Part shown: positions 37,975 through 57,876 of the stretch, one piece after another
Numbering within the stretch: the stretch's first letter is position 1
Layout: every line of letters starts with the position of its first letter
Notes under the pieces: generated by a model
What the model was told of the DNA's origin: nothing
Seen by the model: the letters and a program-made list of their open reading frames with translations, nothing else
Databases searched by the model: none
DNA from: a virus
Taxonomy: Duplodnaviria > Caudoviricetes
DNA: 64,000 bases
IMG/VR virus record: IMGVR_UViG_3300022695_000065
Span: 5,937 to 69,936 of that record
Strand: one strand, 5' to 3'
Position numbers and translations under genes: made by a program

Positions 37975-38080
37975 TACAAAACCCTCAATACACGAAAGCT
38001 ATATTCTAGGTACAAACGTACCAGAAATAATTTACGTTAATTCTGAGGGTTAAAATGCTTTAATTTAAGTATATATTTAA

Positions 38081-40530: not shown

Positions 40531-40533
40531 TAT

Positions 40534-40845
40534 TTATTTTTTAAGTTCAGTTGATTCTGGCAAAGAATTCCTATCTATTTTACCTTGCCATATTTTAGAT
40601 ATAGTTGTTCTCGATTTATTCATTTTAAATCTATGATTAACTAAATTAACTACTACATCTGTAGTTACTTTATTTTTAGGGTGTAACTTATTGTAAGTCA
40701 TAATATTATTATATTTATTCATAATATAATCATAGTGTAATTTTGTAAATTTAGTTAAATCATATTTTTTTCTTATAATTTTATTTTCAGTTTTAAACTT
40801 AAAAAATTTATAAAACCAATTTTTAATTAATTTAATTAAATACAT
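40534..40845 (-). CDS. Hypothetical protein with a possible C-terminal HTH
   Basis: KSRTTISKIWQGK resembles a recognition helix. Confidence 0.55.
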   Translation of the reverse strand: MYLIKLIKNWFYKFFKFKTENKIIRKKYDLTKFTKLHYDYIMNKYNNIMTYNKLHPKNKVTTDVVVNLVNHRFKMNKSRTTISKIWQGKIDRNSLPESTELKK

Positions 40846-40861
40846 TTTATTATCCTTTAAA

Positions 40862-41842: not shown

Positions 41843-41858
41843 TTTATTTCTACTTTCA

Positions 41859-42125
41859 TTAATATATACGTAAATGAGTTATTAAAGGCATAGTTTTATA
41901 CACAACAAAATTTATTTTTATATCATTTTTACAAAAATATTTAATAGGTTCTTTTAAAGATATGGAATTAATAAAAATAAATTCTTCTTTACTACAATTT
42001 TTCTATTCATTTTTTATAAGAATTTCTATATTAGTAATTAAACTATTTAATTTTTTATGAGCAAACATTTTTTCTATATTAGGAATATTTTTAATAAATT
42101 TCTGTATAGAAATATTTTTATTCAT
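41859..42125 (-). pseudogene. Tandem paralogue of 42127-42474 with an in-frame TAG at codon 41
   Basis: MNKNISIQKFIKNIPNIEKMFAHKKL vs MINKQISIQEFIENIPDIEKIFAYNKL; the frame stays open after the TAG to ..THLRIY*. Confidence 0.6.
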
Positions 42126-42126
42126 T

Positions 42127-42474
42127 TTATTTTTTATCCCTTAATAAATCTAGTCTTAAAATAGTTCTTATATCCATATAATTAGATATATAAAAACTTA
42201 TAAAAATATTATTTTTACCTATATTTCTATTCATTATTATACTTGTATCTTTTTTTAAACTTGGTTTATTAAATAAAGCAATACTATCATCAGATTTCCA
42301 CCCGTCTATTTTAAAAGCTTCTTTAAGTAATTTATAATAATTACCCCGCCAATTATAATTTACAGAAATTTCAGTACCACTAGTTAATCTAGCTAATTTA
42401 TTATAAGCAAATATTTTTTCTATATCAGGTATATTTTCAATAAATTCTTGTATAGATATTTGTTTATTAATCAT
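42127..42474 (-). CDS. Hypothetical protein
   Basis: ORF; has a degenerate tandem paralogue. Confidence 0.6.
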   Translation of the reverse strand: MINKQISIQEFIENIPDIEKIFAYNKLARLTSGTEISVNYNWRGNYYKLLKEAFKIDGWKSDDSIALFNKPSLKKDTSIIMNRNIGKNNIFISFYISNYMDIRTILRLDLLRDKK

Positions 42475-42507
42475 AAAAACCCTTAAATTTAATTAATCAA
42501 TAAAAGG

Positions 42508-43749
42508 CTACGGAGTAGCCTTAGATGGTTTAAATTTATCAATCACTTTTAATATCTCTGCTTTAGATAATCTATTAGGTATTACACAACTCTCAGACCA
42601 ATCAGGATAATAAATATTTAATTCTCCTCCTAATTTAATCTTATTATGTCTAAGTTCTGGTAAATCTTGCCATTCCATACATTCAATTAAATTATCATTA
42701 ACCCATTTAAGACATCCTATTGAATCTTTAATTATGAAATACTGGGAATCATGTATCTGAGCTATTGGTTTAATATCTAAAGCATATTTTGAATTTAATA
42801 CTCTTTGTTGAAACTCTATTCCTGCTCTATTATTTAATAAACCATAAGACTGACCTAAAGCATTACCTGCTGATCTACTTTCAGCAGATGCTTCATATGG
42901 TGTATATGATTTATTTAAATAAGTTTGAGCTAATATAGGAGTTCTTACTCTTAATCCAAAGGCTACAGTAACATATCCATTTATTGTAGCTTTATTTAAT
43001 CTTGCTTTAACCCAATCATCAGATACTTTATATAATTCATGATATTGTTTTTCAATTCTTTTAGCTTCTTCTATAGGTAAACCTATATTATTAACTAATG
43101 TATGCCAAGTTCCCAAATAAGTAAGTGCAAAAGTTGGAGTTTTTGAATCTTGCCTTAATGCGGGATATTTTTGTTTAATTGAATTAATGCTTTCTACTGT
43201 ATTAATAATTCCTTTAAGTTTATTTTTATAATAAGAATAAGCTCTTAAACAATGTCCATCAAACCCTCTAATATAAACTTTTTGTTTATTAGGGTCTTTT
43301 GTTATTAGGGCTGATATTTTATCTTCTAATGAAGTAAAATCAGCTCCTACTAATATCCAACCTTTAAGAGCTGTAAAACATTGTTTTATTAAAGTACCGT
43401 AAATAGTACCTGTATTAGGTAAATTTTGAAGATTAACTTTAGAATTATGTACAAAAATACCATTAGCTAAGAAGCTGCTATCATCTTTGATTTCCAAGTC
43501 ATAAACTCGTGTAATTCCCACATAGTCAACTTGTTGTATATCTGACTCTTCGAGTGTAATCTGGCATGAGCTGCTCTGGTTAATAGAGCTAGATTTTTTA
43601 TAGAGTTGTGTGTTTTGTCGAAATCTACATGATGCACCTCGAATCCTAAAGGTATTTCCGTCATACCAAGGTTTTCGCAAATAACAATATGATGTTTGAA
43701 TACATATTTTGATCCAGTTTTTCCAGCGAACCAATTTGGTTTTAAACAT
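42508..43749 (-). CDS. Family A DNA polymerase, C-terminal half, preceded by the C-part of a split intein (ends ..VHN at 43444; Ser+1 at 43441-43443)
   Basis: Intein blocks F/G VYDLEIKDDSSFLANGIFVHN|S; Pol motifs GADFTSLE (A), RQDSKTPTFALTY (B), QIHDSQ (C). Confidence 0.9.
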   Translation of the reverse strand: MFKTKLVRWKNWIKICIQTSYCYLRKPWYDGNTFRIRGASCRFRQNTQLYKKSSSINQSSSCQITLEESDIQQVDYVGITRVYDLEIKDDSSFLANGIFVHNSKVNLQNLPNTGTIYGTLIKQCFTALKGWILVGADFTSLEDKISALITKDPNKQKVYIRGFDGHCLRAYSYYKNKLKGIINTVESINSIKQKYPALRQDSKTPTFALTYLGTWHTLVNNIGLPIEEAKRIEKQYHELYKVSDDWVKARLNKATINGYVTVAFGLRVRTPILAQTYLNKSYTPYEASAESRSAGNALGQSYGLLNNRAGIEFQQRVLNSKYALDIKPIAQIHDSQYFIIKDSIGCLKWVNDNLIECMEWQDLPELRHNKIKLGGELNIYYPDWSESCVIPNRLSKAEILKVIDKFKPSKATP

Positions 43750-44469
43750 TGTATGTAACCGTTTTCTGTTAAAAGCTCTCCTATAAAATTATGGTGTAAT
43801 TCACCAAATTTATTTTTCATAGGATTTAATTCTCCAGCTTTACTTCTACTATATGATAAAGAAGTTTTAGCTACCCACTCTTCTTTACTATAAGTTGAAA
43901 GAACTATTTGTTTAATTTTAGATCTTCGTATTTTTAATCGTTTACCAAGTTGTTCTGAAGTAGTAGTGTCTAAAGAATCTTTAAACCATTTAAGTATTGT
44001 AGGAGTTATTAATTTTAATCTATTTTCTTTTATTATTGCTAGTCGTAAAAGCTTACGCTCTTTTAATTCTTTAGAAGAATAATGGTTTTTAATTATAGGT
44101 GATATTACTTTACGTGAATATCCTAAACAAACACCTATTTCTTCTATATTTTTAAGAGAACCATCTTCGTATAAGTTTAACACCTTTTGAATAAAGTGAA
44201 GATTTTCGTGCAATGCCATAATTATTTTTTCCATATAATGAGTCTAAAGATAAAAACCCTTGAGTAGTTAATAACCTATGATTACCTGTACAAGTAATAG
44301 ATTTACCATTGCATAAAGTTATTTTATAGACTTTAGCCATACCTGAATCTACTACTCCCACTACTGGTTTCCAATTACCTTTATGGGTTAATACTTCGGT
44401 TCCTAGAGTGATATTTATAATATCTACTAAACCTTCCTTAGACTGTACCATAATTCCTTTAGGTAAACA
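43444..44469 (-). mobile_element. Split intein plus HNH element inserted at GRLSS/SKVNLQNLP of the DNA polymerase
   Basis: Removing the element restores the PolA-type GRLSSSxxNLQNLP motif in frame. Confidence 0.88.
43467..44234 (-). CDS. HNH homing endonuclease, out of frame, overlapping both polymerase/intein halves
   Basis: KYVFKHHIV..EVHHVDFDKTHNSIKNLALL..HARLH; NUMOD3-like KAGELNPM. Confidence 0.9.
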   Translation of the reverse strand: MEKIIMALHENLHFIQKVLNLYEDGSLKNIEEIGVCLGYSRKVISPIIKNHYSSKELKERKLLRLAIIKENRLKLITPTILKWFKDSLDTTTSEQLGKRLKIRRSKIKQIVLSTYSKEEWVAKTSLSYSRSKAGELNPMKNKFGELHHNFIGELLTENGYIQCLKPNWFAGKTGSKYVFKHHIVICENLGMTEIPLGFEVHHVDFDKTHNSIKNLALLTRAAHARLHSKSQIYNKLTMWELHEFMTWKSKMIAAS

Positions 44470-46170
44470 ACTAGATAGTCTACCACTTAATGCGCCGCCT
44501 ATATTAAAATTACCATGGAGATACCATAAACCATCATCTTTAAAAATAGTTTTATATTTAAAAGCTTCTATAAAAGTATTTAATATTATATTTGTTTCAG
44601 ATAAATGTATTAAAGCATTTATAATATCTAGTTTTTTTTTATCGGTAGTAGTATTTAATAATTTTTTTAATGTTTTATTGCCTACAGCAGCTTCACCAGT
44701 ATCTGTTTTATCTATTTCAGGTAACTTTAAAAAAGCATATAATAATCTTCTGGTTTGTAATGTGCTTTTAGGATTAAAAACAATATTTTTAAAACTTTCA
44801 AAAGGCTTAACTTTTACTTTTAATAATAAATTTTCTTTTATAAAAGCATCTTTTTGTAAAAATAAATTATAATCTTTAATTAATTTAGAATTATGTAAAA
44901 TAACCTCTTGTGTTGTTTTAATATTACTTAACTTATTTTCTGCTATAAATATTTTATTCATATTCATAGGCATACCAGATAATTCCATTTGTAATATAAC
45001 TTTTATACTAGGAATTAATATTTTATTATAAACATATTCTTGTTTATCTTTTATCATAATAGGTAGATTTTTATCTCTAACATACCAAGTTGATAAACAA
45101 TCAATTAAGTTATATTTTAATAATTCATGTAAAGGTATTTTTTTAATATCATTAATATCATCCTTTGCATAATTACCTGCAAATTCATGAGCATTTTCTT
45201 TAAGAGATAGATTATTTCCTGATGTAGAATTAGTAGCTAAATAAGTTATTATTTTTGTATCATCTATATTTTTAGTTAAAGCTTCTAATCCATTTATTAA
45301 ACCTTGTTGGTTTAATAATTCAGCTTTCATATATAATTCAAATATAATAATTTTTATATCATAATTAGCATTATGGTAAATTAATTTACCTTTATATGTA
45401 TTAAAGAAATTAAGTAGTAAATTACGTATTTTTATATTTATTACAAATATATCATAATTACCTGTTGAATAAGATTTAGCAACACTAGAAAGTTCTTTAT
45501 AATCACAAGCAAATGCTACACCATTATGCTTATCCCACGCAAATGCAATAGTAGCTATTCCTGCTTTATTAAACTCTAATGAAAAAGTTTCTATATCTAC
45601 TGTTAAAGCAGGATACTGATGTAAGCTTGCTAACGTAAGCGAAACTTCATCAACAGTGCTCGGAAAGGCTTCTGAGTGTATAATAGAGTCTCCGAGACTT
45701 ACATACGTTCCTTGCTGGTATTTTCTTAATGTACTTAATGAAAGATTAATTTTATTTTTTAATTTTGGATCATAGAATAATCTTTGATAATTTACTCCTA
45801 AGATTATTTTTAAATGCTCATATCCTTTAATTTTACAATTAAGTATATAGCCATAATAAGGTTCTACTTTTCTTACTTTTGTTAATGTTTTAAAATAATT
45901 ACTATCACAAACATATAATATATTTATTTCTAGATGTTTTATAGATTGTAATAAATTATTTAAATATTCTTTTATAAGTTTAGCTGGAGCTTTATTTTGA
46001 ATATTATATTTTAAACTAAAAGCAATAATATCATCATTATTTAATGATAAAGTAGAAAGATAATTATCTTCAATAAATTTCTTATGTAATGCAGCCTCTT
46101 TAATTAATAATGCTATTTTATAAGGATTATTCAATAAATAGTTTTTATCTCTAAATATTATATGTTTCAT
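44152..46170 (-). CDS. Family A DNA polymerase, N-terminal half (3'-5' exonuclease), followed by the N-part of a split intein (Cys1 at 44467-44469)
   Basis: Exo motifs TVDIETF, HNANYD, YNLIDC; GRLSS|CLPKG (block A); CTGNHRLLT (block B TxxH). Confidence 0.92.
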   Translation of the reverse strand: MKHIIFRDKNYLLNNPYKIALLIKEAALHKKFIEDNYLSTLSLNNDDIIAFSLKYNIQNKAPAKLIKEYLNNLLQSIKHLEINILYVCDSNYFKTLTKVRKVEPYYGYILNCKIKGYEHLKIILGVNYQRLFYDPKLKNKINLSLSTLRKYQQGTYVSLGDSIIHSEAFPSTVDEVSLTLASLHQYPALTVDIETFSLEFNKAGIATIAFAWDKHNGVAFACDYKELSSVAKSYSTGNYDIFVINIKIRNLLLNFFNTYKGKLIYHNANYDIKIIIFELYMKAELLNQQGLINGLEALTKNIDDTKIITYLATNSTSGNNLSLKENAHEFAGNYAKDDINDIKKIPLHELLKYNLIDCLSTWYVRDKNLPIMIKDKQEYVYNKILIPSIKVILQMELSGMPMNMNKIFIAENKLSNIKTTQEVILHNSKLIKDYNLFLQKDAFIKENLLLKVKVKPFESFKNIVFNPKSTLQTRRLLYAFLKLPEIDKTDTGEAAVGNKTLKKLLNTTTDKKKLDIINALIHLSETNIILNTFIEAFKYKTIFKDDGLWYLHGNFNIGGALSGRLSSCLPKGIMVQSKEGLVDIINITLGTEVLTHKGNWKPVVGVVDSGMAKVYKITLCNGKSITCTGNHRLLTTQGFLSLDSLYGKNNYGIARKSSLYSKGVKLIRRWFS

Positions 46171-46181
46171 TATATTAATAA

Positions 46182-46418
46182 CTATGTATTTTTAAATTTA
46201 GAGTTATTAGATAATCTTCTATTATACAATTTATTTTTTATTCTTCTTAAATCTGTATTAGATAATTTCCATTCTTCTTTATTATTATAGTATAATACTT
46301 TTGTTTTAAGTGCTTTCATTGCTGTATTTGAAGCTACAATAAATAAATCTTTTTTAAAACATATTTTTTTTTCTACTTTTATAACTATACCTTCAATTAT
46401 AAATTTTAAATTTAGCAT
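46182..46418 (-). CDS. Hypothetical protein
   Basis: ORF track. Confidence 0.5.
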   Translation of the reverse strand: MLNLKFIIEGIVIKVEKKICFKKDLFIVASNTAMKALKTKVLYYNNKEEWKLSNTDLRRIKNKLYNRRLSNNSKFKNT

Positions 46419-46434
46419 AAATTTACCTTTATTA

Positions 46435-46989
46435 TTACTTTATTAACATACTATATAAAATATAATCATTTAACTTATTTTCTAATTTTTTATGAGTTTT
46501 TCTAAAATCATTGATAGTTTTTTCATTTAAAGTAACAGGACTACCTGGTACGTAGTCTTTACAAATAGTAATTATAATATTATGAAAACTTTTAGGTAAT
46601 AATATAAACACATCACCAAATGTTTTAGATAACATAAATATACTTTTTATATAAAAAACTAAATCTTTTTTAGATTCTTTTATATATCTTGTTTCATCTA
46701 ATATTTTATACATTCTATTATGTAAAGAATTATCTAAAGGATAGGTTTTATACCAATCCATTCTACATTTATTATAATAAGTTACCCCATTAAAACGAAT
46801 TCCTTCATTAGTTTTAATTTGTAGTATTTTGCAATTTTCTACACATATATTATTAATTTTATTTTGAATAAATGCCATTCTTTCTGAATTAAAATAATCA
46901 ACTATATGATTATATAATGATAATTTAATTTTAGTATTAATTTCAGAATAAAAACTAGACACCTGAATATTTCCTTGGTAATTGCCCAT
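46435..46989 (-). CDS. Hypothetical protein (position of N4 gp38-like)
   Basis: Between the helicase and polymerase genes. Confidence 0.55.
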   Translation of the reverse strand: MGNYQGNIQVSSFYSEINTKIKLSLYNHIVDYFNSERMAFIQNKINNICVENCKILQIKTNEGIRFNGVTYYNKCRMDWYKTYPLDNSLHNRMYKILDETRYIKESKKDLVFYIKSIFMLSKTFGDVFILLPKSFHNIIITICKDYVPGSPVTLNEKTINDFRKTHKKLENKLNDYILYSMLIK

Positions 46990-48229
46990 AACATATTACT
47001 TTTTCAGAAGCTCTGGTAAATGCTACATGCAACATACGAGCTACAGTATTTGGTTGATTACATCTACCTATATCTGATAAATTTAAATACACATTTTTAT
47101 ATGTAGAACCTTGAGCTTTATAAACAGTACAAGCATATATGGATCTTAAATCCCCAAATTTTCTCTTAGTAGAAAAATAAATTTTCCAATCTTTATTTTT
47201 TGTACATTCTTTTGCTAGCTCTTTAAGATATATTTTTACATCATTTTGATTTAATGCTTGAAATACATTTATACCTATTCCTAATGAATAATTAATTCCT
47301 TTAATGCCTTGTAAATTATCAGGTAAAACTTTTCGTATAGTAACTATATTTTCTGTATTATAACCTTCAGAATTACCAATAGCTTCTATTGGCTTATTAG
47401 TAATAACTTTTTCACCAACATTAAATATAGGAGATAGATTTAAAGTTTTTCTTATATAATTATTGTAATCATTTACAGTATCATTAGTCCATGCAATGAT
47501 TTTAGATTTGTTACTATTTATTGTATTTTTAGAGAATTCTTTATCTATTGCTGTTTGGAATTCTGAACCATTCATATGAATAATGGTTTTATTATCATAT
47601 GTAATAGGAGTAAATATTCCAGTATCTATAGTTTTTCTAAATTTAGCTGCTTCTAAATCAATAGGTGTACCTTTAGTAAATCTTACAGATTCATTTAATG
47701 TACCTTTTAATTTAACACTACTTAGTACTGAATTATTTATATCATTAACTGATATTAATTGATATGAATCACCAATATATAATATTTTACATTTATGAGT
47801 AGAATCTCTTATAAGCTTTAATAGATGTTTATCTATATATGTGTATTCATCAATAATAATTAATACATTAGTTAGTACACGCCAATTAAAATTCTTTTTT
47901 ATAGATGTTGTGCCTGTGGCAAGATTTTCACTTACTTTTAATTTTAATAGAGAATGAATAGTTTCTGTTGGTTCATTTGATAAATTTTTTAATACACTAG
48001 CTGCTTTATTTGTTGTAGCTGTGCAAAATACTTTAAAATCATCAGTAGAATTACCTGTAATTAATTTTCTTAATTGTGCTGATTGATTAATCATTTTAAT
48101 TAAATATTTAGTTAAAAAACTTTTACCAGTACCAGGAAAACCTTCTATTAACATTTCACCATGAGTATCACTATGAAGAAATTTATTAAACATACCAGCT
48201 ATATTTTGCTGATCTGTTGTCAGAGCCAT
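46955..48229 (-). CDS. Dda/RecD-like SF1 DNA helicase (N4 gp37-like)
   Basis: GFPGTGKS, TATTNKAA, IIIDE, IGDSYQL, TVYKAQGSTY and VAFTRAS motifs. Confidence 0.92.
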   Translation of the reverse strand: MALTTDQQNIAGMFNKFLHSDTHGEMLIEGFPGTGKSFLTKYLIKMINQSAQLRKLITGNSTDDFKVFCTATTNKAASVLKNLSNEPTETIHSLLKLKVSENLATGTTSIKKNFNWRVLTNVLIIIDEYTYIDKHLLKLIRDSTHKCKILYIGDSYQLISVNDINNSVLSSVKLKGTLNESVRFTKGTPIDLEAAKFRKTIDTGIFTPITYDNKTIIHMNGSEFQTAIDKEFSKNTINSNKSKIIAWTNDTVNDYNNYIRKTLNLSPIFNVGEKVITNKPIEAIGNSEGYNTENIVTIRKVLPDNLQGIKGINYSLGIGINVFQALNQNDVKIYLKELAKECTKNKDWKIYFSTKRKFGDLRSIYACTVYKAQGSTYKNVYLNLSDIGRCNQPNTVARMLHVAFTRASEKVICYGQLPRKYSGV

Positions 48230-48245
48230 TGTATTTCCAATTATT

Positions 48246-48431
48246 TTATGGATTTAAATTTAAATATTTATTTAAAATAATGCATTGATTATCTTTTGAT
48301 AAGTTAAAATTACAAGTTATTGTTCTATTTTTTGATATATAAAAAAATTTACAATTTTTACATTCATCTAAATTCATATATTCATCAATAATTTTTTGTT
48401 TAACATCTATTTTTTTATTATTTTTATTCAT
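48246..48431 (-). CDS. Small hypothetical protein with Cys motifs
   Basis: CKNCKF..C..C. Confidence 0.5.
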   Translation of the reverse strand: MNKNNKKIDVKQKIIDEYMNLDECKNCKFFYISKNRTITCNFNLSKDNQCIILNKYLNLNP

Positions 48432-48438
48432 TTAATAA

Positions 48439-48738
48439 TTATACTTTCCTGTTAATAACACCTTTTGTTTTTAATTTTAAATATTCATTTTTAGATAATA
48501 GTTTAAAATTACAAGAATTATCTTCTGTAATTGATTGAATCATCCCATCGTTTAACATTTCAGCATTTTTAAATAAACTCAATATTCCAATACCTATTTC
48601 AAAATCTACTATATATTTTTGTAAATAACCAAATTCTATAAGCATATAACAAAAATTTTGATTTATAAGTTCTTTTTCAGAAGGTATAGTTATTCTTGGT
48701 TTACTTATATTTTCTTTATTTAAACTATTTTGTTTCAT
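48439..48738 (-). CDS. Hypothetical protein
   Basis: ORF track; overlaps the upstream stop. Confidence 0.5.
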   Translation of the reverse strand: MKQNSLNKENISKPRITIPSEKELINQNFCYMLIEFGYLQKYIVDFEIGIGILSLFKNAEMLNDGMIQSITEDNSCNFKLLSKNEYLKLKTKGVINRKV

Positions 48739-49849
48739 AATAAATTAATTTCCCAAAATTTACAGATGCATTAGGATTATTAACTGCAATCCATATAACA
48801 GGAAATCCAGGGTCTTCTATTATTTTACGACACTCTAGATCACTAAATATTATTAACACTGTAGGTGGATACTCTTTAAAATATTTAAATACAGGTTTTA
48901 ATTTAGTACCACCTCTGCCATTAAATTTAATATTACCCATAGATTCATCTTGGTTTAAAATATGAACATTATGAATTTTAGTATCAAAATCAATTATTGT
49001 AGTTAATACTGGATTTAAACATTCTCTCATATATTTTGTTTCAGAATAATAAGCATTAAATTCTTCATCATTTACAGAACTACTTGTATCAAAAGCTAAA
49101 CCAAGATCATTCATACTTTCACCATATAATGAAGGTAAATAAAAATCTGGCATAAACCTTTTATTAGGTCTTTTAAATGAATAATCAGTTTTAGCATAAG
49201 CAGTCATATGTTGCATAAGTATAGTAAACCAATCTAATTTAGGGTTACATAATTCATCGATAACTCGTTGAATATCCCCAGGTATAGTTCCTGCTTCATC
49301 TTTAAAGATTTTACTTTGAATAGACGCTTTTACTATTATACTTTTTATAGTAGCTTCTTTATTTTTTACTTCTTGTAAAGAATCTCCGCTAATAGGTATA
49401 ATATCACAATCATAATTATCTTTAGAACCATAAGGGTCATCAGGTAATTCCTTATATATTTGCTCAGTTGCCATTTTATCATATTTATGATTTATTAAAC
49501 CACCATCAGGTAATTTATAATTTTTATTAGTGAGCATATTATTAATTACATAATCTGCTGCTTTATTATATTTTTCTTTATCATAACCTACACCTCTAAC
49601 CATATGTTCAAAAGCTACATGCCAAGCTTCATGTGCTAATAAACCTATTCTTTGTGATGATGTTAAATTATGAAAAAAGTCAGGATTTATAAGAATATAT
49701 TCTCCATTAGTAGCTGCTGTAGGAATAGATTTTTCCCATCTTAATTTTAATGAAAATAATATAGTACATATAAAAGCACTGCTATGTACGCTTAATATTC
49801 CAATTTTAGCTTTATTAAGGTCTTTAGTTAATTGTTTAATATTTGGCAT
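48725..49849 (-). CDS. Zincin-like metallopeptidase plus VWA domain protein (N4 gp25-like)
   Basis: TAATNG..LAHEAWHVAFEH (HExxH); AFDTSSSV (MIDAS DxSxS); GRGGT. Confidence 0.9.
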   Translation of the reverse strand: MPNIKQLTKDLNKAKIGILSVHSSAFICTILFSLKLRWEKSIPTAATNGEYILINPDFFHNLTSSQRIGLLAHEAWHVAFEHMVRGVGYDKEKYNKAADYVINNMLTNKNYKLPDGGLINHKYDKMATEQIYKELPDDPYGSKDNYDCDIIPISGDSLQEVKNKEATIKSIIVKASIQSKIFKDEAGTIPGDIQRVIDELCNPKLDWFTILMQHMTAYAKTDYSFKRPNKRFMPDFYLPSLYGESMNDLGLAFDTSSSVNDEEFNAYYSETKYMRECLNPVLTTIIDFDTKIHNVHILNQDESMGNIKFNGRGGTKLKPVFKYFKEYPPTVLIIFSDLECRKIIEDPGFPVIWIAVNNPNASVNFGKLIYYETK

Positions 49850-49857
49850 AATATTTC

Positions 49858-50922
49858 CTAATCTAATAAAAGTCCTACATTACGCTCTCTCCATTTAACA
49901 ATAGCTGAACAATCTGCTAATGGTATATTTTTACGTACAGCATTATTTAAACAAGTAATTTGAAATTCAATAGGAAGTCTATCAATCATTTGAATAATAG
50001 TATCAACAGTAGTTTCCTTAATATGTTTAGCCACCATAAAACTAATAGCATATAAAATGCTTGGTTCTTCAGGAATATCCACACCTTTAGGATTACGCAT
50101 AATTTCTTGTATAGTAGGAATATCTTCAAATATACTACAATAAGGTATAAATTCATTAGCCATACCTTCACCTACTGTACCTGCTACAAGTGGCATTTTA
50201 TTCATAGATACAGTTTTCCATGGTTTAATAATTTTAGATAAAAACTCCCATGTTCTAGGACATGGAAATGTTTTATCAGAATGATCTGGATCAAAATTAT
50301 GGAGAGCTTCATTTTTAAAACTAATCCATGCCATAATTCTGTGATCAATACTATTATTATTAGCCCATTTAAGCCAATCTTTAACATCAGCCTCAAGCTG
50401 GAAATGAATCATTCTGGATTGCATAGCTGTAGATAATCTATTTACAATAGCTTTATCTGTATCAAGATTACCAGCACACATAATTACTACATTTTTATGT
50501 AAATTATATTGTCCTATTTTTCTATCTAATACGATTTTATACGCTGCTGCTTGTACAGCCATAGGTGCTGAATTAAATTCATCAAGTAATAGAAACCATC
50601 CATCATAGTTATCAGTGTTTTCTGAGCCAAGCTGCTCATCACTAACTGCCTTTAAAGGCAAGGAATCATTTTCTATAGGGAATATATCCATAGGTAAGTA
50701 AGTAGCTTTATTTAAAGCTTTATCTACATAAGGAAATCCATTTAAGTCTGTTGGGTCACATTGAGCTAATCTAATATCTATAAGTTTTAAGTTTTGTTCA
50801 TCAGCTATTTGACGCGCAATAGATGATTTACCTATTCCTGGTGAAGAAGTAAACATTGGTACTAGACCAGCTTTAAAAGTATCCATTATAAATTCTGGTG
50901 CTTGTGCTGGAGTTATAAACAT
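49858..50922 (-). CDS. MoxR-like AAA+ ATPase (N4 gp24-like)
   Basis: SSPGIGKS, LLLDEFN, STAMQSR and PCPRTWE motifs. Confidence 0.9.
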   Translation of the reverse strand: MFITPAQAPEFIMDTFKAGLVPMFTSSPGIGKSSIARQIADEQNLKLIDIRLAQCDPTDLNGFPYVDKALNKATYLPMDIFPIENDSLPLKAVSDEQLGSENTDNYDGWFLLLDEFNSAPMAVQAAAYKIVLDRKIGQYNLHKNVVIMCAGNLDTDKAIVNRLSTAMQSRMIHFQLEADVKDWLKWANNNSIDHRIMAWISFKNEALHNFDPDHSDKTFPCPRTWEFLSKIIKPWKTVSMNKMPLVAGTVGEGMANEFIPYCSIFEDIPTIQEIMRNPKGVDIPEEPSILYAISFMVAKHIKETTVDTIIQMIDRLPIEFQITCLNNAVRKNIPLADCSAIVKWRERNVGLLLD

Positions 50923-50950
50923 TTCTATATCCTTTCATATTTATGTTTAA

Positions 50951-51184
50951 TTATTTCTTTAAAGCTACTTTGAAAAATTCATTTGTAAGTTTTTTTAAAT
51001 ACTTAATATCTTTAAATGTAGTTTCTATAGTTAATTCTTTATCTTTCATTGTAAGAATAAAAGCATTATCAGATTCATCAATATTTTTTATTACATCGTA
51101 TAGTTTACTACTATTATTGGTACTATCTAAATTTTTCATGTAGAAATCTGGATTAATGATATTTTCTTTTTTATCTTTATTCAT
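50951..51184 (-). CDS. Hypothetical protein
   Basis: ORF with an AAGGA RBS. Confidence 0.55.
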   Translation of the reverse strand: MNKDKKENIINPDFYMKNLDSTNNSSKLYDVIKNIDESDNAFILTMKDKELTIETTFKDIKYLKKLTNEFFKVALKK

Positions 51185-51211
51185 TTTATTTAATATCCTT
51201 TATTTAAATAT

Positions 51212-51289
51212 TGGTGTCCGTAGCGGGACTCGAACCTGCACTGTTCAGATTTTAAGTCTGTTGTCTCCTACCGATTGGACTATACGGAC
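51212..51289 (-). tRNA. trnL: tRNA-Leu(UAA), short variable loop
   Basis: GUCCGUA/UACGGAC acceptor stem, anticodon loop CU-UAA-AA, TTCGA T-loop, encoded CCA. Confidence 0.85.
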
Positions 51290-51295
51290 TTTAAT

Positions 51296-51372
51296 TGGTG
51301 GGCATAGAAGGACTCGAACCCTCAACACCAGAAGTAGAAGTTCTGTGCTCTATCCAGTTGAGCTATATACCC
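51296..51372 (-). tRNA. trnR: tRNA-Arg(UCU)
   Basis: GGGUAUA/UAUGCCC acceptor stem, CAGAA-CU-UCU-AC-UUCUG anticodon arm, TTCGA T-loop, encoded CCA. Confidence 0.93.
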
Positions 51373-51484
51373 TTTATTTTACTAAAAAAAAAATAGGTAG
51401 ATGCTTAATTAAAAACACCTACCCATAAGTTTATTGTAACTACAGGGGTAAAACATGAAAGGACGTAGTTACAATTTAATTAAG

Positions 51485-51688
51485 TTAATATAATTTTTCT
51501 AAAGCTTCAATAGTATTATGCAATAAATTTATAGCATTTTGTATATTTTTCATATTAATTAAAAGACCTACTTTATTATCACTTGATAAACCTATTACAA
51601 TAGATTCATCTGCTTTTTCAACTAATTTATATATATCTTCATTAGATAATTTATTTGTTTTAATAGGAAAATCAATAATATTATTCAC
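51485..51688 (-). CDS. Hypothetical protein
   Basis: ORF track. Confidence 0.5.
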   Translation of the reverse strand: MNNIIDFPIKTNKLSNEDIYKLVEKADESIVIGLSSDNKVGLLINMKNIQNAINLLHNTIEALEKLY

Positions 51689-51689
51689 A

Positions 51690-52169
51690 CTATATATCTT
51701 TATCTGTTTTTGATTCTTTATAAATAGTTACTTCAACGCCAGCTTCTTTAAATAAATTTAAACCAAGTATAGCTGGTTCAGTCCAACTACTTTTACATCT
51801 TGAATCTGTTTTTATATAATGAACTATTCTTTTTATACCAGATTGTATAATAGCAATAACACATTGATTACAACTTGGTCCTACACCAGGAGGATAAACA
51901 TACATAATACAATCTTGTAAATTAATACGAGCTAATAAAATAGCATTTAATTCAGCATGTATTATTTGTTTTAATTTATTTTCTTTATTATTATAAAGAT
52001 CATAATTATCATTGCATCCAATAGGAAATCCATTAAAACCTGTACTTATTATACTTTTATCAGGTCTTACAATAACAGCTCCTACCTTAGTATTTGGGTC
52101 TTTAGACCATTTAGATATTTGTTTAGTTAATTGTAAAAATCTAATATCCCATTTTATTCTATTATTCAT
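51690..52169 (-). CDS. dCMP (deoxycytidylate) deaminase
   Basis: SKDPNTKVGAVIV, GFNG, IHAELNA and PSCNQC zinc motifs. Confidence 0.92.
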   Translation of the reverse strand: MNNRIKWDIRFLQLTKQISKWSKDPNTKVGAVIVRPDKSIISTGFNGFPIGCNDNYDLYNNKENKLKQIIHAELNAILLARINLQDCIMYVYPPGVGPSCNQCVIAIIQSGIKRIVHYIKTDSRCKSSWTEPAILGLNLFKEAGVEVTIYKESKTDKDI

Positions 52170-52172
52170 AGT

Positions 52173-52841
52173 TTAAAGCTCTATTAGAATTTTAAGTAAA
52201 CCATGATCATTAATATGAATTACCATATTATCACCTAATTCTTCTTTTCTTTTATTTATTAATTTAATTGCTTCCCTTAATTCAAAAGTATTATCTATTA
52301 AACTATCGTTATTATTTTCTGGTTTCACACATGTATTTATAGCTTTGGGTATATTAGAATAATTATCAAATAAACCTGGTAATTCATTAATATTTTCAGT
52401 AACTGTATTTATTAATTTTTCTCTGCTATATTTTGGTAAACCAACATATTCAGGTAAATTTGTATTTATCAAAGTTTTATTTACAGTAACAATACATTCA
52501 ATTAAATTTTTATTAGAAAAATAATGTATTTCATCAGGTTTTGTTCTTCTAAAAAAATAAGGATTAACTACTTCAGTATGAGATTTAGTTCTAAAGCTGA
52601 CTATAGGAAGAGGTTCCCTTTTATCAGATTTACTATAAATTATTTTAGTACCTCTTACTATTTCATTTTTATGAAGATTTTTAGGCTTAATTAATATTTT
52701 GTATTTAATATTTGATAATCTAATTACTTTAGCTACGTAAATATTATTAAATAAACCTAGTGTATTTTTAAATTTTTTTTCTTCTCCTGGTAAATTTAAA
52801 ACTACAATAAGACTGCTTTTAGCAGAACATCCTATCAGCAT
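52173..52841 (-). CDS. Hypothetical protein
   Basis: Long ORF in operon context; start codon uncertain. Confidence 0.55.
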   Translation of the reverse strand: MLIGCSAKSSLIVVLNLPGEEKKFKNTLGLFNNIYVAKVIRLSNIKYKILIKPKNLHKNEIVRGTKIIYSKSDKREPLPIVSFRTKSHTEVVNPYFFRRTKPDEIHYFSNKNLIECIVTVNKTLINTNLPEYVGLPKYSREKLINTVTENINELPGLFDNYSNIPKAINTCVKPENNNDSLIDNTFELREAIKLINKRKEELGDNMVIHINDHGLLKILIEL

Positions 52842-53001
52842 TTTATAATCCTTTTTAATATATTTAAAATAAGGCGGCTGTACTCATAAATTCTTGCTCA
52901 TCTTAAGAACTTAGTTACTTACAAGTTAACTATCTTATTTATAAAAATAATTTAGCATCTATGATTAAGGCCACAGCCAAGACCTGCAAAGGAGGCAGTA
53001 A

Positions 53002-53238
53002 CTAAGTGTCAATTATCATTTTACCAAAAGTATTGAATTTTGTTCTAATATTATCTGGTAAAATAAATTCACTATAATATATGTGCTTAGAGCTAGTATT
53101 ACCACTTACATATAATGCTATGTAACCAGTTCCCCATTTAGCATATAATTCATTATTATATTTGTAGATATTATTTATTTTGTATATACCTGCTTTACGC
53201 AGTAAAATAAAACTATCTTCAATTAATTCAAATTCCAT
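53002..53238 (-). CDS. Hypothetical protein
   Basis: ORF track. Confidence 0.55.
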   Translation of the reverse strand: MEFELIEDSFILLRKAGIYKINNIYKYNNELYAKWGTGYIALYVSGNTSSKHIYYSEFILPDNIRTKFNTFGKMIIDT

Positions 53239-53248
53239 TTTATTGCTT

Positions 53249-53434
53249 TTATTTATTAAATAGATTAGTATTTTTTATGATATTTTTACATTTATTTTTA
53301 TAGAACATAATTTCTTTATCTAATCTATTATTTCTAACTTTCCTTCCCATTAAAATATTTTTTAATTTTAGATCATTTAATTCTACAATTTTTCTCTGTA
53401 TAGTTACTAAATTTAATGGTTTTACGTCAAACAT
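53249..53434 (-). CDS. Hypothetical protein
   Basis: ORF with a GGAGG RBS. Confidence 0.5.
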   Translation of the reverse strand: MFDVKPLNLVTIQRKIVELNDLKLKNILMGRKVRNNRLDKEIMFYKNKCKNIIKNTNLFNK

Positions 53435-53530
53435 AATAAAATCAATAGCCTCCAGTTAATCTATAGTAGAAAAGTCACGGTTTTGATCAGTTAGTATCCC
53501 GTATTTGATTTTTTAGAACTTATATGAAAA

Positions 53531-53569
53531 ATATCATACAAAGGTGTCGGAGACACCCTCATATGATAT
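53531..53569 (-). terminator. Stem-loop downstream of the RNAP2 gene (terminator candidate)
   Basis: GGTGTC-GGA-GACACC core with outer ATATCATA/TATGATAT arms; T-rich downstream on the - strand. Confidence 0.5.
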
Positions 53570-53581
53570 TATTATTTATAT

Positions 53582-53766
53582 TTAACTTAGAGCATATTCA
53601 GCATCTATTATATTTTTATACAAGTTATTAGACTTCTTTTTAAGAACTCCAGAACTATTAGTTATTTCATTAAGAATATGTTCTAACAAGTTAGATTCAG
53701 CTATTCTAGCAAGTATATTATTATAGTTCTGTCTTACTTGGTTCATATAGTTAGGAGAAGCCCAGA
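53582..53766 (-). CDS. RNA polymerase II subunit 2 (N4 gp16-like), exon 2 (missed by the ORF track)
   Basis: After splicing reads (F)WASPNYMNQVRQNYNNILARIAESNLLEHILNEIT..EYALS*. Confidence 0.9.
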
Positions 53767-54761
53767 CATATGTTAATCAATTCGTTAAATTGACCTTATT
53801 TCCCATGATTTTTATGAAATGAGTATTTAATATTTGCTTTTTCACGAGATAACTCTGCTTCTTTTATTGAGTCAAACAACCCTAAATGTATTTGTTTGCC
53901 ATGAACCATTATATAAGCACGAAACTTATTTGTTGGTTTATGCAAACATACGCCTAATACTTTAGTTTTGCTATTTGAACTTAGAGACTCATTTAGATGA
54001 TTTTCTCTATTAGTTACTTCTCTTAGATTAATCCATCTATTATCATTACGAATATGGTTTATATGGTCTACTTGATTAGGCAAATAATTTAGTAAGTATA
54101 AAAATACTAGTCTATGTGCAAGATAGTCTATTCCGCCTATGCGTATAGTTAAATAACCAGCGCTATGTTTCATAGTAGCATTTTTATTAATAAAACCATT
54201 TATAGAAGTAAATTTATATGTCCATAATCCTGTAATTATATCATAATTAAACCAATATTTTAATATTGATTGATTTATGAAAAATACTTTTTTATTACCT
54301 TTTTTACATACAGGGCATAGATTTCCAATTTTACTTTTTTTAGAGGAGTATAAATCTTTAGTAATATATGTGGAACTACATCTATTACATTTGCATTTAG
54401 CTCCTATTTTACCTATTCGTTTAATGATATTAAGCACAGTACTTCCTAAATATGTATTTGGTTTTGATATTAACCTAATTAGGAATATAAGTCTATAATT
54501 TTCATTATAGTATCGGACTATATCTTCATCCTTTAATATATTTATATTAAATAGGATGCAAGGCACTTCGGATCTCACTTGAGTATCCTACGGACATTAT
54601 TGACCATAGTATTTATATGGCTTCTCATCCTAGTCTCTGAACCTTCTATAATATTACTACTATAGCTTGGCTGCTGATTGGCATAGGATTTCTCCTTTAG
54701 CTTTCCAGACAGTTCACCTCATCTTGACCTTATATTACTATAAGGCATCGCTCTTATTGGA
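53767..54761 (-). mobile_element. Group I self-splicing intron (IA-type core) in the RNAP2 gene
   Basis: P GAACTGTCTGGAAA (54702-54715), Q AATCAGCAGCCAAG (54666-54679), R GTTCAGAGACTA (54631-54642), S AAGATATAGTCC (54515-54526); P1 with a U.G pair; terminal G at 53767; in-frame exon ligation. Confidence 0.93.
53796..54578 (-). CDS. Intron-encoded HNH-AP2 homing endonuclease with an N-terminal Cys cluster
   Basis: YLAHRLVF..QVDHINHIRNDNRWINLREVT (HNH); GVCLHKPTNKFRAYI..HLGLFDS (AP2); CKCNRC..CPVC; GTG start with AGGA SD. Confidence 0.88.
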   Translation of the reverse strand: MRSEVPCILFNINILKDEDIVRYYNENYRLIFLIRLISKPNTYLGSTVLNIIKRIGKIGAKCKCNRCSSTYITKDLYSSKKSKIGNLCPVCKKGNKKVFFINQSILKYWFNYDIITGLWTYKFTSINGFINKNATMKHSAGYLTIRIGGIDYLAHRLVFLYLLNYLPNQVDHINHIRNDNRWINLREVTNRENHLNESLSSNSKTKVLGVCLHKPTNKFRAYIMVHGKQIHLGLFDSIKEAELSREKANIKYSFHKNHGK

Positions 54762-55578
54762 ACGAATCATGTATATGTAACAGATCAAATCCTTGTCTTT
54801 TACTATTACGTACCATTTCTCTTACTACATATCCATCTACACTATGAATTATATTAGCAGCTAAAGATAAACCACTTTCTTGAGCTTTATTTACATATAT
54901 TCTATGAGTAAATGTAGCATGATCTAATTCATCTATTTCAATTTTATGATCTTCTGGAACCATAACTTTAACATATGCTATATGGCCATCAGGCAAAGTC
55001 CATTGATGAATCTTTTTATTTGATTGCCAACATGATTGCATATCATTCATACATTCCATAGCTCCAGATAGTTCATTATTAAGAATATTATAGAAGTTAT
55101 TTAGTTCAGGGGTATTATCACCGAATATGTCTTTTGGTTGCTGAAGCGAACCGTAAAATGTGGTCATACAGGGGTATTTTACTATTGATCTAGGAAATAT
55201 CCTTCCGCATAGTTTCGACAGTTTTTCAGCAACAAATTGATACACATCTTCTCTTTTACTAGTATTAACAAGATTTACTCTTTTAGCTGTTTTCTTGCAT
55301 CCCATAAGACAAGCCATAATTTGAATACCTGAAGCAGTAGCATCAAGTCCCATTATGAATCCTGTAGGTATATGATTCTGAGCATCTCTATATGCTCTAA
55401 CAGCTTTTGCAAATAGTATTGGTTCATTAGCTAATTCAGTAATAGTTTCTAATTTATCCTTATTAGCATTTACAAACTCAATTCTATTATTCCAGTTTAT
55501 TTTATCTAATCCAAACTGATTAGCTATATCAATTTTGATATATTCTATACCTGTAAATTTAGTCATACTTTTTCTCAT
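54762..55578 (-). CDS. RNA polymerase II subunit 2 (N4 gp16-like), exon 1
   Basis: MTKFTGIEYIKIDIANQFGLDK; motif A GLDATASG; motif B RSIVKYPCMTTFYGS; motif C HIHDS truncated by the intron. Confidence 0.92.
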
Positions 55579-56541: not shown

Positions 56542-57438
56542 TTAAACTCCTGTTATTAAATGTTTTTCACTAAAATTAATTAGAGCCTTCTTGTAAGAAG
56601 TACTTTGAATATTTATATTATAGCCTTGGGAATATATTCTTCCTCGTTTATCATATTTATATGTAAGATGAAATTTATTACCTGATGATAAAATATCATA
56701 GTAAACTAGCTTTGATGCTTTAATAAACCTATCCCAATTAGATGCTTTTTCAGGTGTATCTAATGGTTTCTTTGGTTCTTCTATAAACTTTAAAGTTTCT
56801 ACATCTAAAGATAATTCTATGTCCTGAGATATACATAATACATCTAAAGCTTGATACATCTCATGATGATTATTTGAACCAAGTATAACAGACTCACTCT
56901 TGGTTAAATAACCACTAGATATATTACTAGTTACAGGTCTTGGCTTACATATCATTGGAGGTAAATATTTAGTATTTTCAATATACTGAAGAGTATGTTC
57001 TTCTAAACTATATTTAGATTTAATCATTATACTACCAGTATCACTATTTTTGGCAGATATAATATCAAACATATCTTCTTTACAAGCTACAGCTAATAAT
57101 TCACTAGCTGTTTTAATACCATCAAATACATTTTCATATTCAAATAATAAAGCTAATCTTGAAGCTACAGCTTGTATAGGTTGTACGCCATTATCAGGTG
57201 TTATTATTATAAACATTTCCATTACTATATCAGAAGATAATACAGGTCTTATTTTCTTAATTCTTTCTTGTTTACTTTCATAATATTCACCTTTTCTATA
57301 GTTCTTTATTGCAGTTATCACTCTTTGAGTAATAGCTTTTAAATTAGAATTATTAAGATCCTCTTCTATCTTATTTCTTATATTATGTTTGGAAAAAGTT
57401 TTTTCTATTTTATATTGTTTATTTATTTTGTCATTCAT
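56542..57438 (-). CDS. RNA polymerase II subunit 1 (N4 gp15-like)
   Basis: YLPPMICKP and YDKRGRIYSQGYNINIQSTSYKKA, i.e. the T7-like DxRGR motif at the split point. Confidence 0.92.
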   Translation of the reverse strand: MNDKINKQYKIEKTFSKHNIRNKIEEDLNNSNLKAITQRVITAIKNYRKGEYYESKQERIKKIRPVLSSDIVMEMFIIITPDNGVQPIQAVASRLALLFEYENVFDGIKTASELLAVACKEDMFDIISAKNSDTGSIMIKSKYSLEEHTLQYIENTKYLPPMICKPRPVTSNISSGYLTKSESVILGSNNHHEMYQALDVLCISQDIELSLDVETLKFIEEPKKPLDTPEKASNWDRFIKASKLVYYDILSSGNKFHLTYKYDKRGRIYSQGYNINIQSTSYKKALINFSEKHLITGV

Positions 57439-57855: not shown

Positions 57856-57876
57856 CCGTATATGTTCGGAGAACAT
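57856..57876 (-). promoter_or_regulatory. vRNAP hairpin promoter (template = + strand, leftward transcription)
   Basis: CC-GTAT-ATGTTC-GGA-GAACAT. Confidence 0.85.

What the first reader, a model, noticed from the sequence alone, without database searches (positions are those of the whole stretch)
53767..54761. Group I intron splits the phage RNA polymerase II subunit at its catalytic motif C
The ORF track ends RNAP2 at HIHDSFQ*. Canonical P, Q, R and S core elements follow. P1 (UCGUUC/GAGCGA, with a U.G pair) places the 5' splice site after 54762, and the terminal G is at 53767. Ligation gives HIHDSFWASPNYMNQVRQNY.. and a 333-aa protein in frame. Established: phage group I introns favour conserved sites in essential genes. 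Inference: middle transcription here depends on self-splicing of a vRNAP-made early transcript. I do not recall a described intron in an N4-type two-subunit RNAP gene, but this needs a search.
Basis: partly seen in the sequence, partly recalled or inferred. Interest (0 to 1): 0.8.

Follow-up and report, generated by a model that had tools for sequence, protein, structure and literature searches.

The report
Mobile intron in phage RNA polymerase
The gene for the catalytic subunit of this N4-like phage's second RNA polymerase is interrupted, two codons after its catalytic aspartate, by a 995-base self-splicing group I intron that carries its own homing endonuclease; this is a real but ordinary mobile element, and the same intron sits unannotated at this spot in several sequenced phages.

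Summary
On the minus strand, RNAP2 exon 1 (55578..54762) stops at HIHDSFQ*. A complete group I core follows: Rfam RF00028, 77 bits, E 2e-19, with P1 UCGU|UC/GAGCGA carrying the U.G pair. After P9 comes a 213-aa HNH endonuclease gene. It starts at GTG 54437, not 54578. A terminal hairpin and the terminal G at 53767 close the intron.

Joining GATTCGT|TCTGGG gives a 333-aa protein reading ..IHDSFWASPNYMN... Uninterrupted metagenomic homologues of 329-334 aa read exactly this.

Nine related introns show strong covariation: 96.6% of cells are paired and 42 of 60 pairs have compensatory changes. Extra stems P7.1/P7.2 place the intron in subgroup IA.

The same intron plus a homologous HNH sits at this position in four metagenomic relatives, Pseudoalteromonas phage pYD6-A and Erwinia phage MIF8. 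It sits 3 nt upstream in ZC08, ZQ2 and Moonfish. None is annotated as an intron.

An RNAP2 intron at motif B was shown to splice in G7C-like phages (bioRxiv 10.1101/542787). This scan had already found RNAP2 introns, including a motif C one, on other DNA.

Splicing itself is untested here. Verdict: a new member of a known kind, of modest interest.

The parts
54762..55578 (-). RNAP2 (N4 gp16-like) exon 1. It carries motifs A and B, and motif C up to His-Asp-Ser plus the first base of the Phe codon. The unspliced reading frame runs on into the intron to TAA at 54756-54754.
   Evidence: ORF list. phrog_2051 E 6.6e-99 and PF00940 E 1e-21. 46% identity to Klebsiella phage Pylas RNAP2.
53767..54761 (-). 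The whole group I intron, 995 nt, subgroup IA (IA2-like).
   Evidence: Rfam RF00028 at 77 bits. Splice sites fixed by the U.G pair in P1, the terminal G, P10, and colinearity with intron-less alleles.
54748..54765 (-). P1 hairpin: exon UCGU (54765-54762) plus intron UC pair with the internal guide GAGCGA (54753-54748), with U54762.G54751 at the 5' splice site. A54754-G54753-A54752 can pair with exon 2 UCU (53766-53764) as a 3-bp P10.
   Evidence: Sequence. The MFE and centroid folds both form this hairpin.
54493..54747 (-). Ribozyme core P2-P9, including P3, P4-P6a, the P7 pseudoknot GACUA/UAGUC, P7.1, P7.2, P8 and P9 with a GAAA loop.
   Evidence: Rfam alignment. RNAalifold and the pair counts support every helix with compensatory changes.
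53796..54437 (-). Intron-encoded HNH homing endonuclease gene (213 aa plus stop). It starts at GTG 54437, 6 nt after AGGAAG (54446-54441). It has an N-terminal 4-Cys motif, an HNH_3 core (DHINHxRxDNRWxNLR) and an AP2-like C-terminal DNA-binding part. It lies 3' of P9.
   Evidence: PF13392 E 1.4e-10 and phrog_99 E 8e-53. Full-length alignment to five intron-borne homologues that start MLNI.. at ATG.
53777..53793 (-). Terminal hairpin (P9.2-like) UCAAUU-UAACG-AAUUGA, right after the HNH stop codon. It is followed by UUAACAUAU and the terminal G.
   Evidence: It is conserved in position, with different stem sequences, in L005, L007, L009, ZC08, pYD6-A, ZQ2 and MIF8.
53767..53767 (-). Terminal (omega) G of the intron, marking the 3' splice site.
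   Evidence: Sequence. All relatives have a G at the equivalent place.
53582..53766 (-). RNAP2 exon 2: UC completes the Phe codon, then WASPNYMNQVRQNY...AEYALS and the stop codon.
   Evidence: tblastn with Pylas RNAP2 and with the C-terminus of P0002. phrog_2051 positions 348-401.
56542..57438 (-). RNAP1 (N4 gp15-like) partner subunit gene, upstream on the same strand.
   Evidence: phrog_2166 'N4-like RNA polymerase', E 1.8e-75.
57862..57876 (-). Hairpin ATGTTC-TCC-GAACAT, one of four conserved copies and a candidate N4-type vRNAP early promoter, upstream of RNAP1/RNAP2.
   Evidence: Alignment of the four copies, one with a compensatory T-A to A-T swap. Function is not tested.

Best explanation
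This is a mobile, self-splicing group I intron of subgroup IA (IA2-like). It is 995 nt long and sits in the gene for the catalytic subunit (gp16-like RNAP2) of an N4-like phage's heterodimeric middle RNA polymerase. It lies after the first base of the Phe codon of motif C (H-D-S-^F), 7 nt past the catalytic Asp codon. The pre-mRNA is probably an early transcript made by the injected virion RNAP. It folds into the P1-P9 core. Exogenous guanosine attacks after U54762, which is held in the U.G pair of P1. The freed exon 1 then attacks after the terminal G53767, which is brought in by the terminal hairpin and a 3-bp P10. This joins GAUUCGU to UCUGGG, and only the spliced mRNA encodes the full 333-aa RNAP2. 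The intron's 3' extension carries a 213-aa HNH/AP2-like endonuclease gene with its own Shine-Dalgarno and GTG start. During mixed infection this enzyme presumably nicks or cuts intron-less RNAP2 alleles near the motif C codons, so that repair copies the intron in (homing). Shown here: core structure, covariation, splice-site anatomy, in-frame restoration, and the spread of the same element at the same site in other phages. Inferred: catalysis, timing of transcription, and endonuclease activity and target.
For: The Rfam full-length match scores 77 bits, E 2.3e-19. The MFE fold reproduces P1, P2, P4-P6a, P7.1, P7.2, P8 and P9, with z = -3.27. Across 9 related introns, 96.6% of cells are paired, 42 of 60 pairs have compensatory changes, and 0 of 500 shuffles reach this; slid controls give 34-42%. 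The ligated product IHDSFWASPNYMN is identical to uninterrupted homologues P0002, P0003 and P0005 (329-334 aa). It is colinear at DNA level with intron-less alleles L011 and L012. It aligns with N4 gp16 (PDB 6DT7) LTVHDCFRCLPNY and with Pylas SIHDCFKCHPLYMN. The same architecture (exon 1, about 270-nt core, 210-215-aa HNH, hairpin, G, about 55-codon exon 2) with RF00028 hits of 56-94 bits occurs in L005, L007, L008, L009, pYD6-A, ZC08, MIF8, ZQ2 and Moonfish. The HNH proteins align end to end at 37-53% identity. Exon 2 alone has no Shine-Dalgarno before its first ATG (sequence). A related RNAP2 intron at motif B has been shown to splice in vivo (bioRxiv 10.1101/542787).
Against: There is no RNA evidence for this phage, so splicing is not observed. 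P3 in this copy has four G.U pairs and P10 is only 3 bp. The genome is a single assembled contig with no near relative in the isolate collection, so viability is unknown. Non-splicing endonuclease insertions that leave a polymerase in two working pieces do exist in N4-like phages: gp39 of phage 10Gb.
Confidence: 0.9

Rival explanations
1. Genes in pieces: the insertion is an endonuclease cassette that is not spliced out. RNAP2 is then made as a 274-aa fragment plus a separately translated 54-aa C-terminal peptide, and these assemble non-covalently.
For: A non-spliced insertion splitting the DNA polymerase of G7C-like phage 10Gb gave two separate working fragments. Exon 2 has an in-frame ATG at 53746.
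Against: The complete group I core is kept under structural selection. The U.G pair, terminal G and P10 lie exactly where ligation restores the conserved IHDSFWASPNYMN. There is no Shine-Dalgarno before ATG 53746. The break would separate the catalytic Asp strand from the residues right after it.
Confidence: 0.05
2. Decayed intron: the ribozyme or the contig is defective, and RNAP2 is a pseudogene in a non-viable or misassembled genome.
For: The genome is known only as one 69.9-kb contig with no close isolate. P3 is rich in wobble pairs.
Against: All core helices pair in this copy, and the score is well above the Rfam gathering threshold. The HNH ORF is intact and full length relative to its homologues. 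Exon 2 is intact to the conserved EYALS end.
Confidence: 0.03
3. Splicing occurs, but at a junction shifted from the one proposed, for example 3 nt upstream as in the ZC08/ZQ2/Moonfish subclade.
For: A sister clade of the same intron family does sit 3 nt upstream.
Against: In this sequence only U54762 faces a G in P1. Only the junction T|TC gives an open frame with the conserved spacing HD-x-F-x3-P. A 3-nt shift finds no terminal G and no matching exon 2.
Confidence: 0.02

Closest known systems
g16 (RNAP2) group I intron of G7C-like coliphages Sz33 and N4G2 (Babenko et al. 2019, bioRxiv 10.1101/542787)
   Same: A group I-type intron with an internal homing-endonuclease ORF in the RNAP2 catalytic-subunit gene of an N4-family phage. 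Splicing was shown by RT-PCR, junction sequencing and mass spectrometry of the junction peptide.
   Different: It is inserted at motif B (junction peptide QAVMTAFYGSEAK), not motif C, and is about 800 nt long. Rfam gave those authors no hit, whereas the present intron scores 77 bits.
Unannotated motif C introns in RNAP2 of Pseudoalteromonas phage pYD6-A (second intron) and Erwinia phage MIF8, and of ZC08, vB_EcoP-ZQ2 and Moonfish
   Same: RF00028 core (82-94 bits), a homologous HNH gene after P9, a terminal hairpin and a terminal G. pYD6-A and MIF8 have exactly the same insertion position (HDx^F).
   Different: The HNH is only 33-44% identical by tblastn. ZC08, ZQ2 and Moonfish carry the intron 3 nt upstream (HD^C), and their HNHs form a supported clade (95/95). 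These host RNAP2s have the roughly 75-aa insertion before motif C that the window's RNAP2 lacks. The ZC08 paper called it only an 'HE insertion' (PMC5418858).
Phage T4 td, nrdB and nrdD (sunY) introns, subgroup IA2 (from established knowledge, not tested by alignment here)
   Same: Phage group I introns with P7.1/P7.2, inserted in conserved codons of essential enzyme genes and carrying homing-endonuclease ORFs looped out of the core. In nrdD/sunY the ORF also lies in the 3' peripheral region.
   Different: The target genes are in nucleotide metabolism. The T4 endonucleases I-TevI and I-TevII are GIY-YIG enzymes, whereas this one is HNH/AP2-like.
Intron with a homing endonuclease in an RNAP subunit gene of jumbo phage PhiPA3 (reviewed in PMC12908238)
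   Same: A mobile intron with an endonuclease inside a phage RNA polymerase gene. The endonuclease targets the intron-less allele of a co-infecting relative.
   Different: That is a multisubunit beta/beta'-like RNAP of a nucleus-forming jumbo phage, not a T7-like split single-subunit RNAP. A competitive advantage was shown there and nothing of the kind is tested here.

Membership tests
Group I catalytic intron (Rfam RF00028) | Conserved core P3-P9 with the P/Q/R/S elements, scoring above the curated threshold | tested here: met
   77 bits against a gathering score of 50, model positions 1-253 of 253, E 2.3e-19. The hit is missed when the whole 64 kb is scanned.
Group I catalytic intron (Rfam RF00028) | P1 pairs the 5' exon end with an internal guide, with a U.G pair at the 5' splice site | tested here: met
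   UCGU|UC pairs with GAGCGA, with U54762.G54751. The unconstrained fold forms it.
Group I catalytic intron (Rfam RF00028) | Terminal G at the 3' splice site and P10 pairing with the 3' exon | tested here: met
   G53767. Exon 2 UCU can pair with AGA next to the guide (3 bp). The equivalent G is present in all relatives.
Group I catalytic intron (Rfam RF00028) | Helices maintained by compensatory changes among relatives, including the P3/P7 pseudoknot | tested here: met
   13 helices, 96.6% paired, and 42 of 60 pairs with changes on both sides. P7 has 2 compensated pairs.
Group I catalytic intron (Rfam RF00028) | Exon ligation restores an intact, conserved reading frame | tested here: met
   The ligated IHDSFWASPNYMN equals the sequence of uninterrupted homologues, and the total is 333 aa against their 329-334 aa.
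Group I catalytic intron (Rfam RF00028) | Guanosine-dependent self-splicing | not testable with these tools
   Needs in vitro transcription with GTP, or RT-PCR.
Subgroup IA (IA2-like) of group I introns | Extra stems P7.1 and P7.2 between P7 (5' strand) and P3 (3' strand) | tested here: met
   Two hairpins at alignment columns 145-183 and 187-210, both with compensatory changes. The IA1 versus IA2 distinction was not tested formally.
HNH homing endonuclease (Pfam HNH_3, PF13392) with AP2-like DNA-binding domain | HNH_3 domain above the curated threshold with the catalytic His/Asn residues | tested here: met
   41.1 bits against a cut-off of 24.8. DHINHxRxDNRWxNLR and the following Asn residues are invariant in six homologues.
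HNH homing endonuclease (Pfam HNH_3, PF13392) with AP2-like DNA-binding domain | AP2 domain | tested here: inconclusive
   PF00847 scores 14.5 bits against a cut-off of 33.3. The C-terminal segment is conserved among homologues.
HNH homing endonuclease (Pfam HNH_3, PF13392) with AP2-like DNA-binding domain | Site-specific cleavage of the intron-less allele, and homing | not testable with these tools
   This is only implied by the presence of the same element at one site in distant phages.
N4-type heterodimeric RNAP II, catalytic subunit (gp16/RNAP2) | T7-like palm with motifs A, B and C, a separate RNAP1 gene, and a giant virion RNAP in the same genome | tested here: met
   phrog_2051 E 6.6e-99. 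The close homologue P0002 hits N4 RNAP2 (PDB 6DT7) at E 3.6e-54. RNAP1 matches phrog_2166, and the 3842-aa vRNAP matches phrog_2206.

The most novel reading that the evidence does not exclude
The motif C intron and its HNH form a specialised, widely travelled lineage, found from phages of 28% GC to Pseudomonas and enterobacterial phages, with two target positions 3 nt apart. Beyond parasitising RNAP2, it may give its carrier an edge in mixed infections by cutting the RNAP2 gene of intron-less N4-like competitors, as shown for the PhiPA3 RNAP intron. Its splicing rate may also gate the early-to-middle transcription switch.
Probability: 0.15. Interest if true: 0.6.

Novelty: new member of a known kind. 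Interest (0 to 1): 0.3.

Why it matters
The main value is for annotation and comparative work. The finding explains why RNAP2 appears truncated or 'in pieces' in this genome and in several deposited Schitoviridae records (pYD6-A, ZC08, MIF8, ZQ2, Moonfish). It fixes the true 333-aa product. It shows that default Rfam scans of whole genomes miss such introns.

It also defines a family of intron and HNH elements aimed at the motif C codons of T7-like split RNA polymerases. The family has two insertion positions 3 nt apart. That makes it a tidy system for studying how homing endonucleases and ribozyme guide sequences retarget together. It does not reveal a new kind of mechanism.

Tried and rejected
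Searches that gave nothing useful:
- Whole-window Rfam scans at both the gathering and the E-value thresholds returned only two tRNAs. The intron appears only in short-range scans.
- Megablast of 24 kb of the window against the isolate phage collection found no match.
- The search for related loci with exon 1 in viral contigs found no confirmed relative.
- The look-up of sequencing runs listed no run and no RNA holder, so no read-level test of splicing was possible.
- A PDB sequence search with the HNH protein gave only weak Argonaute hits, which I treat as spurious.
- P0105 looked like another truncated allele, but its contig simply ends there, so it is uninformative.
- DNA for the 77-kb intron-less relative P0011 could not be fetched.

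Readings rejected:
- An intein reading fails because the insertion has stops in the RNAP2 frame and a ribozyme core.
- GTG 54578 as the HNH start fails because all homologues begin at the MLNI.. position, which corresponds to GTG 54437.
- A 'missing 75 aa' between the exons was suggested by the PHROG profile gap. It is explained by an insertion present in N4 and Pylas but absent from this clade.

No further RF00028 hit was found in 36000-64000.

Full report
**What the window is.** The window is 64 kb of a single 69,936-bp contig with 28% G+C. It encodes a 3842-aa virion RNA polymerase (phrog_2206). It also encodes an RNAP1 gene (56542-57438, phrog_2166) and an RNAP2 gene (phrog_2051, E 6.6e-99). 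It is therefore an N4-like (Schitoviridae-type) phage. No near relative exists in the isolate collection.

**The observation.** All features below are on the minus strand.
- The RNAP2 ORF 55578..54754 ends HIHDSFQ*.
- A short-range Rfam scan gives a full-length Intron_gpI (RF00028) match at 54770..54493: 77 bits against a gathering score of 50, E 2.3e-19.
- The two whole-window scans missed it. That is a filter effect, not evidence against the intron.
- The sequence shows P1 as UCGU|UC pairing with GAGCGA, with U54762 opposite G54751. An unconstrained MFE fold of the core forms this hairpin and also P2, P4-P6a, P7.1, P7.2, P8 and P9 (z = -3.27).
- Downstream of P9 lies an HNH endonuclease ORF (PF13392 E 1.4e-10; phrog_99 E 8e-53).
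- Then comes a hairpin at 53793-53777, the sequence UUAACAUAU, and G53767. Exon 2 starts UCUGGG at 53766.
- The exons of 817 + 182 coding nt give 333 codons.

**Is the junction right?**
- The uninterrupted RNAP2 of Klebsiella phage Pylas aligns SIHDCFKCHPLYMNNVRQNY with HIHDSF|WASPNYMNQVRQNY at identical spacing.
- N4 gp16 itself (PDB 6DT7) reads LTVHDCFRCLPNYGN.
- A protein search found many uninterrupted homologues of 329-334 aa at 60-65% identity. They read ..LLTIHDSFWASPNYMNEVRQNY.., which is the predicted ligated peptide residue for residue.
- At DNA level the ligated exons CATGATTCGT|TCTGGGCTTCTCCTAAC are colinear with the intron-less alleles L012 (CATGATTCCT TTTGGGCTTCGCCTAAC) and L011.
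- The gap of about 75 profile positions in the PHROG hit comes from an insertion that N4 and Pylas carry before motif C. This clade lacks it. Nothing is missing from the gene.

**Relatives of the intron.**
- The few homologues of about 270 aa that end at IHD.. proved to be interrupted in the same way. L005, L007 and L009 show exon 1, an RF00028 core (58-87 bits) and a 213-215-aa HNH_3 gene. In L005 and L007 a 54-55-codon exon 2 follows; L009's contig ends 10 nt into exon 2. L008 is cut by its contig end inside the core.
- Among isolates, RF00028 introns interrupt RNAP2 at motif C in five phages. These are Pseudoalteromonas phage pYD6-A (its second intron; a first one lies before NVIHSIDG), Pseudomonas phage ZC08, Erwinia phage MIF8, E. 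coli phage vB_EcoP-ZQ2 and Shigella phage Moonfish. In the records these are annotated as separate 'RNA polymerase', 'HNH' or hypothetical CDSs.
- I worked out each junction from P1 (U.G pair), the terminal G and the frame.
 - WIN, L005, L007, L008, L009, pYD6-A and MIF8 are cut after the first base of the Phe codon (HDx^F).
 - ZC08, ZQ2 and Moonfish are cut one codon earlier (HD^C, U|GU).
- The HNH proteins of the upstream-site group form a supported clade (95/95) in a tree of ten sequences. This suggests a single 3-nt retargeting within the family.

**Structure.**
- An alignment of nine introns was made (A1). A structure of 13 helices was counted on it, including the P7 pseudoknot and P8.
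- 96.6% of cells are paired and 42 of 60 pairs have changes on both sides. None of 500 shuffles reaches this. Sliding the partners by 1-3 columns drops pairing to 34-42%.
- Two covarying hairpins lie between P7 and the 3' strand of P3. These are P7.1 and P7.2, the hallmark of subgroup IA, to which the classic T-even phage introns belong (established knowledge).
- The terminal hairpin after the HNH stop is conserved in place, with different stem sequences, in all relatives.

**The endonuclease.**
- The six intron-borne HNH proteins first compared align end to end. The five relatives are 37-53% identical to the window's protein.
- They share an N-terminal CxxC...CxxC motif, the DHINHxRxDNRWxNLR core, and a conserved C-terminal AP2-like part. 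The Pfam AP2 hit is below threshold.
- Three homologues (L005, L007, pYD6-A) begin MLNI.. at an ATG, and all begin at the aligned position. In the window this corresponds to GTG 54437, 6 nt after AGGAAG.
- The longer ORF from GTG 54578 merely reads through the ribozyme core. This contradicts another first-stage note on this genome.

**Mechanism and what is inferred.**
- The anatomy fits the standard two-step guanosine-initiated pathway. Only spliced mRNA can encode the strand that follows the catalytic Asp and the C-terminal EYALS 'foot'.
- Exon 2 has no Shine-Dalgarno before its first ATG. A genes-in-pieces solution is therefore unlikely, although one is documented for the DNA polymerase of phage 10Gb.
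- Four conserved hairpins (ATGTTC-TCC-GAACAT, one with a compensatory swap) lie upstream on the same strand. The nearest is at 57876-57862, before RNAP1. They resemble N4 vRNAP early promoters.
Neither transcription timing nor splicing could be tested, because no sequencing runs were listed.

**Prior knowledge.**
- Babenko et al. (bioRxiv 10.1101/542787) showed by RT-PCR, junction sequencing and mass spectrometry that an 800-nt insertion in g16 (RNAP2) of G7C-like phages is a spliced intron, at motif B.
- Amgarten et al. noted an 'HE inserted within RNAP2' in ZC08 without calling it an intron (PMC5418858).
- Wittmann et al. noted an interrupted RNAP2 in Achromobacter phages (PMC3915230).
- A td intron is described in N4-like pVa5 (PMC5746245).
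- An intron endonuclease in a PhiPA3 RNAP subunit gene gives a competitive advantage (PMC12908238).
- I found no paper that describes the motif C intron.
- Earlier notes of this scan had already found RNAP2 introns at motifs A, B and C on other genomes.

**Verdict.** The observation and its interpretation stand. The element is a well-supported new member of a known kind, namely a phage IA intron with an HNH homing endonuclease. It belongs to a family already present, unannotated, in public phage genomes.

Noticed in passing
window 53796-54578 (-): The 260-aa ORF from GTG 54578 overstates the endonuclease. Homologues start at MLNI.., which corresponds to GTG 54437 with AGGAAG 6 nt upstream. The first 47 codons are just the ribozyme core (P7.2-P9) read in frame.
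   Followed up: yes
window 53530-53570 (-): A strong hairpin lies right after the RNAP2 stop (GGTGTC-TCC-GACACC inside a 19-bp stem, then a T run). Its TCC loop is the same as in the four promoter-like hairpins at 57856, 59204, 59741 and 60211, so it could be a terminator or another vRNAP-recognised hairpin.
   Followed up: partly
window 42508-46170 (-): The DNA polymerase is in two large ORFs with an overlapping 255-aa ORF between them. A sensitive Rfam scan of 36000-53500 found no group I intron there, so this interruption is of another kind. Another first-stage note suggests a split intein with an HNH.
   Followed up: partly
L001 2424-2725 (Pseudoalteromonas phage pYD6-A): pYD6-A RNAP2 carries a second, ORF-less group I intron (RF00028, 74 bits) inserted just before the NVIHSIDG motif. 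The gene therefore has three exons, and all are annotated as hypothetical proteins.
   Followed up: partly
L003 2432-2686 (Alteromonas phage vB_AmaP_AD45-P1): A related group I core (55.7 bits) follows a 276-aa gene of unknown function (phrog_22493) and precedes a homing-endonuclease gene (phrog_314). It is probably another unannotated intron in a different host gene.
   Followed up: partly
window 54762-55578 and homologues P0002-P0120: This RNAP2 clade (about 330 aa) lacks the roughly 75-aa insertion between the HSxDG motif and motif C that N4 gp16 and Pylas (404-408 aa) carry. Its spacing there is like T7 RNAP.
   Followed up: partly
whole window: Method note: cmscan with default or window-scale filters misses a 77-bit group I intron in 64 kb of AT-rich DNA. 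The same model finds it when 20 kb or less is searched.
   Followed up: yes
L015 1801-2415 (Acinetobacter phage XC38): A full-length homologue of the intron HNH (33% identity) stands free between a hypothetical gene and the primase gene, not inside RNAP2. It is a free-standing relative of the intron-borne enzymes.
   Followed up: no
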